Of a stretch of 64,000 nt of DNA, positions 13,632 through 16,600 are shown piece after piece. Made by a program: the position numbers. How positions within the stretch are numbered: position 1 is the stretch's first letter; each line of letters opens with the position of its first letter. Source of the stretch: Octopus sinensis (taxonomy: Eukaryota); NCBI RefSeq assembly GCF_006345805.1, contig NC_043005.1, positions 67,332,001-67,396,000 of the forward strand. The letters are read 5' to 3'.

Positions 13632-16600
13632 ATATGTGGTGTATATATATATATATATATATATAAAGTTAAAAGTTATCGGTAAACGTTTTTGATTTTC
13701 ACTCTCGATAAATTCATCCCCTTTTGTGTTCCCAGCACTCGGAATCTTAATTTAGGAGCCCTTAATTGTATAACTACATGAATAATATTTTTCTATATGA
13801 ATAATATTTTTGTCTTATGACTAATTCGTCTTTTGTGCTGGGCACCTGGTAGTAAATAATATTACTACCCTTCTTGTTTATATTCGTATATTACATGATG
13901 GATTTATTCGTAAAATTCTTCCCGGCATGCCCTATACTGCCGTGTAAATTTTGCGTCTGCGCAGAGATTTGAAAAGTTAAGATCTGCTAGTAGTCGGGTT
14001 CAACACATGGTCCCACATCGCTGCAGACCTCGATTAAATTTAGGCGACTCGCTGATGAAGCTAGCCTTAGCAAACATATTCTGTGTTTTGCTAGAAAGAA
14101 GCAGAAACCGCGGTTCGAGTTGTAAAAGTTATCGGTAAACGTTTTTGATTTTCACTCTCGATAAATTCATCCCCTTTTTGTGTTCCCAGCACTCGGCATC
14201 TTAATTTAGGAGCCCTTAATTGTATAACTACATGAATAATATTTTTCTATATGAATAATATTTTTGTCTTATGACTAATTCGTCTTTTGTGCTGGGCACC
14301 TGGTAGTAAATAATATTACTACCCTTCTTGTTTATATTCGTATATTACATGATGGATTTATTCGTAAAATTCTTCCCGGCATGCCCTATACTGCCGTGTA
14401 AATTTTGCGTCTGCGCAGAGATTTGAAAAGTTAAGATCTGCTAGTAGTCGGGTTCAACACATGGTCCCACATCGCTGCAGACCTCGATTAAATTTAGGCG
14501 ACTCGCTGATGAAGCTAGACTTAGCAAACATATTCTGTGTTTTGCTAGAAAGAAGCAGAAACCGCGGTTCGAGTTGTAAAAGTTATCGGTAAACGTTTTT
14601 GATTTTCACTCTCGATAAATTCTTCCCCTTTTTGTGTTCCCAGCACTCGGAATCTTAATTTAGGAGCCCTTAATTGTATAACTACATGAATAATATTTTT
14701 CTATATGAATAATATCTTTGTCTTATGACTAATTCGTCTTTTGTGCTGGGCACCTGGTAGTAAATAATATTACTACCCTTCTTGTTTATATTCGTATATT
14801 ACACGATGGATTTAATCGTAAAATTCTTCCCGGCATGCCCTATACTGCCGTGTAAATTTTGCGTCTGCGCAGAGATTTGAAAAGTTAAGATCTGCTAGTA
14901 GTCGGGTTCAACACATGGTCCACATCGCTGCAGACCTCGATTAAATTTAGGCGACTCGCTGATGAAGCTAGCCTTAGCAAACATATTCTGTGTTTTGCTA
15001 GAAAGAAGCAGAAAAAAACGCGGTTCGAGTTGTAAAAGTTATCGGTAAACGTTTTTGATTTTCACTCTCGATAAATCATCCCCTTTTTGTGTTCCCAGCA
15101 CTCGGCATCTTAATTTAGGAGCCCTTAATTGTATAACTACATGAATAATATTTTTTATATGAATAATATTTTTGTCTTATGACTAATTCGTCTTTTGTGC
15201 TGGGCACCTGGTAGTAAATAATATTACTACCCTTCTTGTTTATATTCGTATATATATATATATACATTTGCGGCCAAAATGTTCAGAACGGCATTGTTTT
15301 CGTTAGAAAAGTAGGTATAAGTTTTTATTAAAGTTGTTCAATATTCTATAATTTTCAAAGACAATAAATACGATATGAATTGGTATTGTCTGAGATTTTG
15401 GTGTAATTGAATGGACAATACAAACGTTATGGATGATATAGTTATTTACTGCAAAACCTATGGCGGCCAAAACGATTAGAACGGTTGAAAAAATAACAAA
15501 ATAATCAAAAAGTGACAGAGAGTGCTGGAATTATTTCATATTTAGTGTGAAGCCCTTTAGCTTTAATCAAAGTTTGACATTTTTGACTGCATGGCGAAAT
15601 TAAATTTTCAATTTTTTACTGGGTGATCTTATCCCGTTCTTCCCGAAGAGCATTTCATAATTGCTCGGTTGTTTTAGGATTTCTGGCTTTCAAACGTTCT
15701 CCTAGAATATTCCACACATTTTCAATAGGATTGAGATCTGGGCTTTGAGCAGGCCAATCCATATCAATAACCTTTTCAGCCTTGAGGAAGTTCAGGACCA
15801 CCTTAGCCTTGTGACATGGGGCATTGTCCTGCATGAATATGGGTGGTCGCATAGTTGAATTTCTCAGCACAGGCAAGACATGATCTTTTACAAGTTGTTT
15901 ATAAACTCCTGCATTTACATTTCCATGTAATCGCACCAAAGGGCCCACAACATCTCCAGATATCATCTCCCAAACCATGACACTTCCTCCACCGAATTTA
16001 ACACTAGTCTTAAGGCATTTAGGTGACAATTTTCCACCTGCGTTTCGACGAACGTACTTTTTCCCATCTGAGTCAAATTACATAGACTTAGATTCATCAC
16101 TGAAATGCACCGTTCTTGAGACCACAACACATGTTCGGAGGCAAAGGTAAGACGACACTTTTTATTCTTGGAGCTGATCAGTGGCTTCACTGCAGGTGCC
16201 CTTGCTTGTAGGTCATGTTTAACTAAAGGACTAGACACAGTTTTTCGAGATAAAGTTTTCTTCAGTACAATGCTCATTTCCCGAGAAACAGCAGCAGCAG
16301 TTTTAAATCTGCCCTTTTTAACCAACTTTACCAAAGCACGATCTTCTCTCTTGGTCGTTTTTCTTGGCCTACCTGTAGACTTTCTTGCTTCACACGAACC
16401 AAAATCATCGTAGACCTTAAGAATACCGTTAACAACACTTTTTGACTTGTTAACAATCTTTGCAATAGACCTAATACTTAAATTATCCTTCTTTCGAAGC
16501 TTAATAATCTGCTGACGAATTGGTAACGGAGTAAGTGGCTTTATATTAACAAAGTACACTGCAGATATTCATATTAATGTTTAGTAAACGAACTGTCACG

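What the first reader, a model, noticed from the sequence alone, without database searches (positions are those of the whole stretch)
13670..15252. Tandem 454-bp hammerhead-ribozyme array: candidate cephalopod non-LTR retrozyme / circular-RNA system
Seen: 3.5 nearly identical non-coding units, each full unit carrying a type I HHR with a very short palindromic stem III (ACCGCGGU), inserted in (TA)n. Known: tandem HHR repeats with short palindromic stem III are characteristic of Penelope-like pLTRs and metazoan non-LTR retrozymes, which cleave as dimers and yield monomeric linear and circular RNAs. Inferred: transcription across the array would release ~454-nt monomers (cuts after 14115 and 14569), possibly mobilised by a PLE RT such as those in this window. 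I do not recognise this family.
Basis: partly seen in the sequence, partly recalled or inferred. Interest (0 to 1): 0.88.

Follow-up and report, generated by a model that had tools for sequence, protein, structure and literature searches.

The report
Hammerhead-ribozyme tandem repeat in a TA microsatellite
A 454-bp non-coding repeat, present 3.5 times and carrying a Penelope-type hammerhead ribozyme motif in each full unit, sits inside a TA microsatellite and looks like a new family of the already known animal 'retrozyme' class of small mobile RNAs.

Summary
The array is real: 13670-15253, period 454, 3.5 copies, 98% matches. It is non-coding and unique in the window.

Each full unit has a complete type I hammerhead core, an 8-bp helix I and an 8-nt palindromic helix III. 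Predicted cuts fall after 14115 and 14569. Unit 3's helix III is broken.

Helix II is atypical: 45 nt, with one unpaired purine on each side of its base. Rfam reports no hammerhead, even at E<=10. A canonical hammerhead elsewhere in the window scores 18 bits.

A motif with helix I >=4 bp and an 8-nt palindromic helix III arose in 0 of 400 shuffles.

The context fits Penelope-like element (PLE) biology:
- Both array ends lie in (TA)n.
- Two decayed Neptune/Nematis-type PLE ORFs are in the window, one 1.07 kb upstream on the same strand.
- Two more PLE-type hammerheads also sit next to (TA)n.

The array begins 3-8 nt after the predicted cleavage site, which suggests a ribozyme-cut RNA template.

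Verdict: a new member of the known metazoan non-LTR retrozyme / PLE-derived class. Catalysis, circular RNA, copy number and cephalopod origin are untested. Interest is moderate.

The parts
13537..13665 (.). (TA)n microsatellite forming the left flank and target of the array
   Evidence: TRF period 2, 65.5 copies; sequence
13670..15253 (+). Tandem array of 3.5 units of 454 bp. Units: 13670-14123, 14124-14577, 14578-15033, and partial 15034-15253
   Evidence: TRF, BLASTN, alignment A1
14044..14123 (+). Hammerhead motif of unit 1. Helix I 14044-14051 / 14116-14123; core 14052-14058; bipartite helix II 14059-14103; GAA 14104-14106; helix III 14107-14114; H17 = U at 14115; predicted cleavage between 14115 and 14116
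   Evidence: descriptor scans; constrained fold -17.4 kcal/mol against MFE -20.6
14498..14577 (+). Hammerhead motif of unit 2, with one C-to-A change in the helix II internal loop. Predicted cleavage between 14569 and 14570
14951..15033 (+). Degraded hammerhead motif of unit 3. Core and helix I are intact; the helix III palindrome is lost through a 3-nt A insertion and a C-to-A change
   Evidence: absent from the stricter scan
14116..14569 (+). Predicted 454-nt monomer RNA released by cleavage at two successive sites
   Evidence: MFE -109.9 kcal/mol, z -2.56, 2 of 100 shuffles fold as well. The 5' end pairs with the helix I 5' strand in the MFE. Minus strand z -1.76
15254..15264 (.). Remaining (TA)n on the right of the array. 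The array ends in a TATAT stretch of the unit that merges with it
15265..16877 (-). Context: decayed Tc1/mariner-like element with ~245-bp terminal inverted repeats, inserted in the same (TA)n. (TA)n resumes at 16878-16927
   Evidence: Pfam HTH_Tnp_Tc3_2 E 3e-17; inverted repeat 15241-15487 / 16660-16902, 87%; sequence
10958..12599 (+). Context: PLE-A, a 5'-truncated and frameshifted Penelope-like RT-GIY-YIG ORF. It ends 1,071 bp upstream of the array on the same strand
   Evidence: tblastn with 7 PLE proteins, residues about 211-752 of 753 in three frames
35426..36958 (+). Context: PLE-B, a 5'-truncated RT-GIY-YIG ORF with one in-frame stop (36440-36442) and a CX4CxxC linker motif. Its 5' end abuts (TA)n(GA)n
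39569..39921 (+). Context: single-unit element with a PLE-type hammerhead motif (39762-39809). It too has one unpaired purine on each side of helix II. (TA)n lies on both sides
53211..53292 (+). Context and positive control: canonical type I hammerhead with an 11-bp helix II stem and palindromic helix III, about 60 bp upstream of (TA)n(TG)n
   Evidence: Rfam Hammerhead_1 18 bits, E 0.039

Best explanation
The array is one insertion of a non-autonomous, non-coding, hammerhead-bearing tandem element. It belongs to the metazoan 'non-LTR retrozyme' class, which is now viewed as derived from the pseudo-LTRs of Penelope-like elements (PLEs).

Proposed mechanism:
1. Transcription across the units gives a multimeric + strand RNA.
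2. The hammerheads have a helix III of only two pairs plus a palindromic tetraloop. They work poorly alone. They pair through helix III with a neighbouring or second copy and cleave after the GUU triplet (after 14115 and 14569), releasing 454-nt monomers with 5'-OH and 2',3'-cyclic phosphate ends.
3. Helix I holds those ends together, so a cellular RNA ligase could circularise the monomer.
4. A PLE reverse transcriptase/GIY-YIG endonuclease acting in trans nicked a (TA)n tract. It copied a more-than-unit RNA from an internal UAUAU stretch to its 5' end. That 5' end lay at, or a few nucleotides from, the ribozyme cleavage site.

Shown here: the array, the core and helices, the (TA)n flanks, the junction positions and the PLEs in the window. 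Inferred: steps 1 to 4. This genomic copy is partly decayed (unit 3). Its ribozyme is probably weak, because of the mismatch at the base of helix II and H17 = U.
For: Array and non-coding nature.

Ribozyme motif:
- Complete core, 8-bp helix I flush with C3 and H17, and an 8-nt palindromic helix III in units 1 and 2.
- Helix I >=8 bp (with no test of helices II or III) turned up in 13 of 300 shuffled windows.
- Helix I >=4 bp plus an 8-nt palindromic helix III: 0 of 400 shuffles, against 3 independent real loci, all on the + strand.
- The helix III self-duplex is -14.1 kcal/mol and forms in the dimer cofold MFE.

PLE hallmarks named in PMC4209133 (text read):
- A nucleotide between A9 and 10.1: present.
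- A G-C pair next: present.
- Palindromic 15.2-16.2 and loop 3: present.
- Long helix II: present.

Precedents for the extra nucleotide on the 3' side of helix II:
- A PLE locus, L002, has a hammerhead about 190 bp downstream of its ORF with an unpaired U on both sides of helix II.
- The window's motif at 39766 has A and G there.
- The axolotl retrozyme HHR_Amex2 has a U-U mismatch at the base of helix II (PMC7229834, passage).

Target:
- The array lies inside a (TA)n tract. (TA)n covers 2.7% of the window.
- (TA)n is a stated preferred PLE target, with the CX2-5CxxC linker proposed to mediate it (PMC8557442, passages).
- PLE-B carries that motif.

Junctions:
- The array starts at unit position +8 after the predicted cut, or +3 with a 2-nt gap. 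That is a window of 9 of 454 positions, about 2%.
- It ends in a 5-nt TATAT shared with the flank.

Monomer fold: z -2.56, with the 5' end paired to helix I.

Class definition: tandem repeats of 150-450 bp with type I hammerheads, under 50% GC, without LTR, PBS or PPT, co-existing with PLEs (PMC7229834). Derivation from PLE pLTRs: bioRxiv 10.64898/2026.07.22.740005 (abstract and section 14).
Against: - Rfam Hammerhead_1 gives no match: not at the gathering score, and not at E<=10 in 2.3 kb or 116 nt. The canonical motif at 53210-53293 scores 18 bits under the same conditions.
- Helix II has no pair adjacent to A9 and G12. Only 3 bp precede a 4x5 internal loop. An extra nucleotide 5' of G12 is not among the PLE hammerhead hallmarks listed in the discussion of PMC4209133.
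- The monomeric active fold is 3.2 kcal/mol above the MFE and holds 0.06% of the ensemble. An 93-nt fold is no better than shuffles (z -0.60).
- Unit 3's motif is broken. Change is no rarer in the ribozyme than elsewhere in the array: my count on alignment A1 is about 2 events in 252 nt against about 9 in 1,330 nt.
- There is only one locus. No covariation, copy number or expression data could be obtained.
- For an anole PLE, hammerhead cleavage was not needed for insertion in vitro, reverse transcription started at sites not homologous to the target, and no reads ended at the cleavage site (PMC11167929, passages). This weakens my reading of both junctions.
- (TA)n is very common here: 46 tracts, with 10% of positions within 60 bp of one.
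Confidence: 0.65

Rival explanations
1. The array is part of the autonomous element PLE-A. Its hammerhead-bearing 3' region (pLTR) was amplified in tandem and later separated from the ORF by microsatellite growth, so it is not an independent non-autonomous family.
For: - The PLE-A ORF ends at 12599, 1,071 bp upstream and on the same strand.
- 443 bp of that gap is (TCT)n plus (TA)n.
- No other CUGANGA box lies on the + strand between the ORF end and the array.
- Canonical hammerheads are said to be universal in C-terminal-EN PLEs (PMC8557442).
- In fetched PLE loci the hammerhead lies about 190 bp (L002) and about 540 bp (L003) downstream of the ORF.
- With two + strand PLE ORFs in 64 kb, lying this close downstream by chance is a matter of a few percent (my estimate).
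Against: - The repeated unit holds no ORF, and no copy of the unit lies upstream of PLE-A or anywhere else in the window.
- A true pLTR repeat has the period of the whole element, 3,497 bp in L003.
- The array is bounded on both sides by (TA)n, as expected for a separate insertion.
- Array units are 97.6-99.3% alike, whereas PLE-A is frameshifted into three frames. This suggests different ages.
- A shared (TA)n target explains the proximity. PLE-B, also 5'-truncated, likewise lacks a canonical hammerhead in its 3' UTR.
Confidence: 0.12
2. The array is an ordinary DNA-level minisatellite. A single fragment, perhaps an old pLTR remnant, was multiplied by unequal crossing-over or replication slippage. 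The hammerhead-like motif is an inactive relic with no role in how the array arose.
For: - No Rfam match.
- Mismatched base of helix II.
- Unit 3 is already broken.
- No excess conservation of the motif within the array.
- The window is full of microsatellites and repeats: 46 (TA)n tracts and 67 internal repeat pairs.
- Near-identity of units is what recent DNA-level amplification gives.
Against: - A complete core with an 8-bp helix I flush to it and a palindromic helix III is not expected by chance (0 of 400 shuffles).
- The array begins within 8 nt of the predicted cleavage site (about 2% by chance) and lies in the preferred PLE target.
- Two other hammerhead elements in the window share the (TA)n association.
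- DNA-level growth after an RNA-mediated insertion is compatible with the main explanation rather than opposed to it.
Confidence: 0.15
3. It is a Pol III-driven SINE-like element. The stretch around the cleavage site doubles as a B box, with an A-box-like stretch about 37 nt upstream. It would be mobilised as a short Pol III transcript.
For: - The GGTTCGA at 14112-14118 matches the first seven positions of the B-box consensus (consensus recalled, not from a call).
- A partial A-box-like TAGC...AG lies in helix II.
- Schistosome hammerhead repeats are recalled as SINE-like.
Against: - ARAGORN finds no tRNA-like gene in 13000-16000.
- The same letters are fully accounted for by helix III, U16.1, H17 and helix I.
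- The A-box match is poor (my reading).
- There is no poly(A) or simple-repeat tail at the unit end.
Confidence: 0.03

Closest known systems
Metazoan non-LTR retrozymes (Cervera & de la Pena 2020, PMC7229834), e.g. the Mytilus galloprovincialis 350-390-bp repeats and the axolotl 330/350-bp repeats
   Same: - Tandem non-coding repeats within the stated 150-450 bp range.
- Under 50% GC.
- One type I hammerhead per unit.
- Weak helix III of two pairs capped by a palindromic tetraloop, which implies dimeric action.
- Self-paired monomer.
- Co-existence with PLEs.
- A mismatch at the base of helix II also occurs in axolotl HHR_Amex2.
   Different: - No sequence similarity could be tested, because no retrozyme sequences were on hand.
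- At 454 bp the unit is at the top of the range.
- Helix II is 45 nt and bipartite, not about 4 bp.
- Expression, circles and copy number are unknown.
- Only one locus was seen.
PLE pseudo-LTR hammerheads ('min-HHRs'; Cervera & de la Pena 2014, PMC4209133)
   Same: - An extra nucleotide between A9 and 10.1, then a G-C pair.
- A long helix II.
- Palindromic helix III.
- Expected low activity and action as a dimer.
- Association with (TA)n-targeting PLEs.
- The same build is seen in the fetched PLE loci L002, L003 and L004.
   Different: - The repeat period is 454 bp with no RT ORF between copies.
- Helix I is 8 bp, against 4-5 bp.
- Helix III is a full 8 nt rather than minimal.
- There is an additional unpaired A 5' of G12.
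Newt/salamander satellite 2 and schistosome hammerhead repeats (recalled; cited within PMC7229834)
   Same: [quoted passage not shown]
   Different: - Those ribozymes fit the Rfam type I model.
- They occur in very high copy number.
- Their loop 1-loop 2 contacts are conserved, which was not examined here.
Plant LTR retrozymes (PMC4918200; search listing only)
   Same: A non-autonomous element whose ribozymes cut out a monomer RNA that can be circularised and reverse-transcribed in trans.
   Different: The plant elements carry type III hammerheads, LTRs, a PBS, a PPT and 4-bp TSDs, and are mobilised by Gypsy elements. None of these is seen here.

Membership tests
Hammerhead ribozyme, type I | Conserved core: C3 U4 G5 A6 N7 G8 A9, G12 A13 A14, A15.1-U16.1 pair, H17 not G | tested here: met
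   All present in 3 of 3 full units. H17 = U at 14115, 14569 and 15025
Hammerhead ribozyme, type I | Open helix I formed by the sequences directly 5' of C3 and 3' of H17 | tested here: met
   8 bp including two G-U pairs, in 3 of 3 units. It also forms in the MFE of the 80-nt, 93-nt and 454-nt folds
Hammerhead ribozyme, type I | Closed helix II that starts with a 10.1-11.1 pair directly next to A9 and G12 | tested here: not met
   0 closing pairs in strict register. With one unpaired A on each side: 3 bp, then a 4x5 internal loop, then a 12-bp hairpin. Natural precedents for such a base exist (L002; HHR_Amex2)
Hammerhead ribozyme, type I | Closed helix III; in metazoan type I motifs it is short and palindromic | tested here: met
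   8-nt palindrome in units 1 and 2 (2 of 3 full units), lost in unit 3. The Rfam consensus shown has the same 8-nt format
Hammerhead ribozyme, type I | Score at or above the Rfam Hammerhead_1 gathering threshold (34 bits) | tested here: not met
   No match at gathering or at E<=10. The control motif at 53210-53293 scores 18 bits, also below gathering
Hammerhead ribozyme, type I | Site-specific self-cleavage | not testable with these tools
   Needs in vitro transcription of monomer and dimer constructs
Hammerhead ribozyme, type I | Compensatory changes in the helices among diverged copies | not testable with these tools
   Only three near-identical copies, and no eukaryotic genome collection was open. 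One change in the helix II internal loop, no paired position varies
Metazoan non-LTR retrozyme | Head-to-tail repeats of about 150-450 bp, each with a type I hammerhead | tested here: met
   454 bp x 3.5; motif in each full unit, with the helix II caveat
Metazoan non-LTR retrozyme | Non-coding, low GC, no LTR/PBS/PPT | tested here: met
   ORFs of 50 aa or less; 37% GC; no terminal repeats other than the units. PBS and PPT were not searched for specifically
Metazoan non-LTR retrozyme | Dispersed multi-copy family in the genome | not testable with these tools
   One locus in the 64-kb window; the source genome was not available
Metazoan non-LTR retrozyme | Expressed as linear and circular monomer RNAs | not testable with these tools
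   No transcriptome access. Only the fold is available (z -2.56)
Metazoan non-LTR retrozyme | Co-existence with autonomous PLEs | tested here: met
   Two PLE RT-EN ORFs in the window, both decayed
PLE pseudo-LTR | Direct repeats that flank an RT-EN ORF, with the period of the whole element | tested here: not met
   No ORF between units. No copy of the unit upstream of PLE-A or PLE-B. Compare L003: two hammerheads 3,497 bp apart around the ORF
PLE pseudo-LTR | Sequence homology between the unit and the UTRs of a PLE | tested here: inconclusive
   No similarity to the flanks of PLE-A or PLE-B, nor to L001-L004 (best 16 nt, E 0.35). The family's own PLE, if any, may lie elsewhere in the genome

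The most novel reading that the evidence does not exclude
The array is a genomic fossil of a retrotransposition event whose template was a linear, more-than-unit RNA. Its 5' end would have been made in vivo by hammerhead self-cleavage, because the array starts 3-8 nt after the predicted cut. Reverse transcription would have been primed in a (TA)n nick on an internal UAUAU stretch.

If so, two things follow. A PLE-type hammerhead with a purine-purine pair inserted at the base of helix II (seen here twice, and as U-U in a PLE locus) is active in cells. And ribozyme-processed RNA, not only unprocessed RNA or circles, feeds PLE-mediated integration. Work in vitro on an anole PLE did not find this.
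Probability: 0.22. Interest if true: 0.55.

Novelty: new member of a known kind. Interest (0 to 1): 0.4.

Why it matters
Small ribozyme-bearing repeats are the main source of non-spliceosomal circular RNA in many invertebrates. How they are mobilised is still inferred rather than shown.

This locus adds a family that the standard Rfam model misses. It comes from a mollusc-like genome and has an unusually long, mismatched helix II.

The locus also has clear junctions. One end is at the predicted cleavage site and the other is in the (TA)n target of PLE endonucleases. If the same junction pattern recurs genome-wide, it would be direct sequence evidence for two things: the ribozyme cuts in vivo, and cut RNA is the template for PLE-type integration.

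In the papers I could search, hammerheads in cephalopods appear only as a count of 235 Rfam matches in the giant squid (PMC6962438). No paper found by the searches describes a cephalopod retrozyme. I could not confirm that this window is cephalopod.

Tried and rejected
- Rfam on the whole window at gathering, on 13300-15600 and on 14025-14140 at E<=10. No hammerhead and no other ribozyme on either strand. The four or so weak hits (pestivirus UTR, Ysr209, hilD UTR, ARRPOF, mir-9436) lie in AT-rich sequence far below their thresholds, and I discarded them.

- A covariance model of PLE-type hammerheads built from five motifs other than the array's. MAFFT misaligned the cores and the helices of unequal length, so I built no model.

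- tRNA or SINE origin: ARAGORN found nothing in 13000-16000.

- Taxon: the PLE RT's named relatives are bivalves (Saccostrea, Mytilus) at 45-48% identity, plus contigs labelled as bivalve symbionts. The best hit (75%) is unnamed. The 95 relatives of the Tc1-like transposase are all unnamed. I did not try to trace unnamed records. 'Cephalopod' stays unverified.

- Hammerhead variant with a U3-A8 core: hits at 37082-37107 (+, PLE-B 3' UTR) and 5612-5582 (-). The descriptor finds 0.89 loci per shuffled window, and two or more in 69 of 300 shuffles. These are leads only.

- Similarity of the unit to the four fetched PLE loci: none.

- An alternative ribozyme register using the first GAAA: helix III then has 1 pair. 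Rejected.

- Not checked:
The supplementary figures of PMC4209133 and PMC7229834, and supplementary files S1/S2 of PMC8557442, may list mollusc or cephalopod hammerheads and PLE consensus sequences that bear on novelty.
  - Structure-prediction, complex-prediction and atlas tools were not used, because the feature is RNA.
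Full report
**What is there.** Tandem Repeats Finder reports one array at 13670-15253 with period 454, 3.5 copies, 98% matches and no indels. BLASTN of unit 2 against the window finds only the array's own four copies: 99.3%, 100%, 97.6% and a 222-bp partial at 99.1%. Nothing else is longer than 37 nt. The array is non-coding: only three ATG ORFs of 40 aa or more overlap it, of 43, 43 and 50 aa. It is 37% G+C. The window has no N.

**The ribozyme motif.** On the + strand of each full unit I find the following, given in unit 1 coordinates:
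- an 8-nt helix I 5' strand (14044-14051);
- CUGAUGA (14052-14058);
- 45 nt of helix II region (14059-14103);
- GAA (14104-14106);
- the 8-nt palindrome ACCGCGGU (14107-14114);
- U at 14115;
- an 8-nt strand (14116-14123) that pairs fully with the first, two of the pairs being G-U.

They give a 454-nt monomer, 14116-14569. In unit 3 a 3-nt A insertion and a C-to-A change destroy the palindrome. So 2 of 3 full units are intact.

Helix II is the weak point. No pair closes it next to A9 and G12. With one unpaired A on each side there are 3 bp, a 4x5 internal loop and a 12-bp hairpin with one bulge.

**Is it more than chance?**
- In first-order Markov shuffles of the window, a core with a helix I of 8 bp or more (no test of helices II or III) occurred in 13 of 300.
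- A relaxed descriptor gave 0.14 loci per shuffle. It requires helix I >=3 bp, helix II >=3 bp with up to one unpaired nucleotide on each side, and a near-palindromic helix III.
- Helix I >=4 bp plus an 8-nt fully palindromic helix III occurred in 0 of 400 shuffles.
- The real window has three independent loci of this kind, at 14052/14506, 39766 and 53216. All are on the + strand and none on the - strand.
- I wrote the descriptor after seeing the motif, so these figures are generous.

**Evidence against the ribozyme reading.**
- Rfam finds nothing at gathering scores in the whole window. It finds no hammerhead at E<=10 in 13300-15600 or in 14025-14140.
- As a control, the same 116-nt type of search on 53190-53305 finds Hammerhead_1 at 18 bits, E 0.039. 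That is still below the 34-bit gathering score. So Rfam under-calls this class, but the array's motif fits the model clearly worse than a canonical neighbour does.
- As a monomer, the hammerhead-compatible fold of the 80-nt motif is -17.4 kcal/mol against an MFE of -20.6, and holds 0.06% of the ensemble.
- The 93-nt fold is no better than shuffles (z -0.60).
- In a two-copy cofold, the helix III self-duplex (-14.1 kcal/mol for the 8-mer) and the long helix II hairpin both form. This fits action as a dimer.
- The 454-nt monomer folds to -109.9 kcal/mol (z -2.56; 2 of 100 shuffles fold as well), with its 5' end paired to the helix I 5' strand. The minus strand gives z -1.76.

**Surroundings.** The array lies inside one large (TA)n tract. 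(TA)n runs 13537-13665 on the left. Eleven bases of it follow the array (15254-15264). Then comes a decayed Tc1/mariner-like element at about 15265-16877 (Pfam HTH_Tnp_Tc3_2, E 3e-17; terminal inverted repeats of about 245 bp). After it (TA)n resumes at 16878-16927.

Two Penelope-like elements (PLEs) are in the window, both on the + strand and both 5'-truncated.
- PLE-A (about 10958-12599) is split over three frames.
- PLE-B (35426-36958) has one in-frame stop.
- PLE-B has RVT_1 and GIY-YIG matches. It also has a CX4CxxC motif in the RT-EN linker. According to PMC8557442 that motif marks the Neptune/Nematis (and Naiad) endonucleases and was proposed to mediate their bias for (TA)n (passages).
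- The 5' end of PLE-B abuts (TA)n(GA)n.

The other two hammerhead loci also adjoin (TA)n.
- A roughly 350-bp element at 39569-39921 has (TA)n on both sides and a 200-bp internal inverted repeat.
- The canonical motif at 53211-53292 lies about 60 bp before (TA)n(TG)n.

(TA)n is common here: 46 tracts, 2.7% of bases, with 10% of positions within 60 bp of one. The association is therefore suggestive rather than overwhelming for any single locus.

**Junctions.** Ungapped, the array's first base (13670) corresponds to the 8th nucleotide after the predicted cut. With a 2-nt gap, similarity reaches the 3rd nucleotide. Falling within such a 9-nt window of a 454-nt unit has a chance of about 2%. The right end lies at unit position about 222, in a TATAT stretch that merges into the flanking (TA)n.

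I read this as target-primed reverse transcription in a (TA)n nick. It would start on an internal UAUAU stretch of a more-than-unit RNA and run to a 5' end created by the ribozyme. This is inference from one locus. Work on an anole PLE found internal initiation at sites not homologous to the target, no need for hammerhead cleavage in vitro, and no reads ending at the cleavage site (PMC11167929, passages).

**Comparison with what is known.**
- Cervera and de la Pena 2014 (PMC4209133; I read parts 1-2 of the text) describe PLE hammerheads. [quoted passage not shown]
- The array's motif has all of these except the short helix I. It adds one unpaired A 5' of G12.
- That addition has precedents:
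  - The scan of genome contigs with a PLE alignment returned 4 loci out of 23 pattern matches.
  - In L002, a hammerhead about 190 bp after the ORF has an unpaired U on both sides of helix II.
  - L003 has two identical hammerheads 3,497 bp apart around its ORF.
  - L004 has one on the opposite strand, and L001 has none by my descriptor.
  - The window's 39766 motif has A and G in those places.
  - The axolotl retrozyme motif HHR_Amex2 has a U-U mismatch at the base of helix II (PMC7229834, passage).
- Cervera and de la Pena 2020 (PMC7229834; abstract, section 14 and passages) define metazoan non-LTR retrozymes. [quoted passage not shown] Mussel repeats of 350-390 bp are one example.
- A 2026 preprint (10.64898/2026.07.22.740005; abstract and section 14) derives vertebrate retrozymes from PLE pLTRs.
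- The array meets every structural criterion that can be tested here. Expression, circles and copy number cannot be tested.

**Rivals.**
1. The array is the amplified 3' part of PLE-A, whose ORF ends 1,071 bp upstream on the same strand.
   - For: the proximity, and the absence of any other CUGANGA box downstream of that ORF.
   - Against: the (TA)n on both sides of the array, the absence of the unit anywhere else, the absence of an ORF between units, and the apparent age difference between the array and PLE-A.
2. A DNA-level minisatellite with a relic motif. This is compatible with the lack of extra conservation of the motif. It does not explain the junction at the cleavage site.
3. A Pol III SINE-like element. 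The GGTTCGA at the cleavage site resembles a B box (consensus recalled). ARAGORN finds nothing, and the same letters are explained by the ribozyme.

**Novelty and interest.** This is a new family of a known class, not a new kind of system. In the held library, the searches found no paper describing hammerhead retrozymes in cephalopods. The giant squid genome paper lists 235 Rfam Hammerhead_1 matches without further study (PMC6962438, passage). An Octopus vulgaris repeat survey lists 31 recently active PLE families (PMC13282606, passage).

I could not confirm the cephalopod origin. The named relatives of the PLE RT are bivalve sequences at 45-48% identity, and the relatives of the Tc1-like transposase are unnamed.

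The points a specialist might care about are three: the Rfam-invisible helix II variant, which recurs in the same window; the single-locus hint that ribozyme-cut RNA was the template; and the (TA)n tract that collected an array and a Tc1-like element, with PLE-A just upstream.

**Limits.**
- One locus, with three near-identical copies.
- No covariation, expression or biochemistry.
They may hold mollusc hammerhead and PLE consensus sequences that bear on novelty.

Noticed in passing
window 39569-39921 (+), hammerhead motif 39762-39809: A single-unit element of about 350 bp lies between two (TA)n tracts. It has a PLE-type hammerhead motif: helix I 4 bp, helix II 7 bp with an unpaired A and G at its base, and an 8-nt near-palindromic helix III. 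A 200-bp internal inverted repeat (39673-39867, 75%) would extend helix I into a long rod.
   Followed up: partly
window 53211-53292 (+): A canonical type I hammerhead (11-bp helix II stem, palindromic helix III, GUC cut site), about 60 bp before (TA)n(TG)n. Rfam Hammerhead_1 scores 18 bits, below gathering. tblastn found no PLE ORF upstream. A 97% inverted repeat lies at 52397-52608 / 52777-52988 just upstream.
   Followed up: partly
window 37076-37113 (+) and 5582-5612 (-): Possible hammerhead variants with the U3-A8 core. One lies in the 3' UTR of PLE-B, about 120 nt after its stop codon. The other has a 6-bp helix I and a 5-bp helix II. The descriptor is not specific: 0.89 loci per shuffled window.
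   Followed up: partly
window 15265-16877 (-): A decayed Tc1/mariner-like transposon with unusually long (about 245 bp) terminal inverted repeats. It is inserted in the same (TA)n tract as the array.
   Followed up: partly
window 7437-7835, 30561-31000, 39960-40416, 50311-50748, 57282-57810: At least five copies (67-79% alike, both orientations) of a repeat of about 440 bp. Its start looks tRNA-derived, so it is probably a SINE. One copy abuts the hammerhead element at 39569-39921.
   Followed up: no
window 12985-13298: A 314-bp (TCT)n microsatellite (105 copies, 87% matches) lies between PLE-A and the (TA)n tract.
   Followed up: no
window 14112-14118 and the same place in units 2 and 3: The letters spanning helix III, the cleavage site and helix I read GGTTCGA. 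These are the first seven positions of the Pol III B-box consensus as I recall it. ARAGORN finds no tRNA-like gene.
   Followed up: partly
window 13743, 14198, 14652, 15106 (alignment A1 column 75): The one polymorphic site covered by all four units alternates A, C, A, C. This could hint at a dimeric higher-order repeat. One site is not evidence.
   Followed up: no
L001-L004 (genome contigs): Contigs filed under metagenome-assembled bacterial genomes encode eukaryote-type Penelope-like RT-GIY-YIG ORFs, three of them with hammerheads. Several protein hits named as bivalve-symbiont proteins are of the same kind. These are probably host DNA binned with the bacteria.
   Followed up: no
window 5127-6454 and 58378-60169: Two copies of another repeat family share segments in permuted order, as expected for partial tandem, PLE-like insertions. 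The possible U3-A8 hammerhead at 5582-5612 lies between the two segments of the left copy.
   Followed up: no
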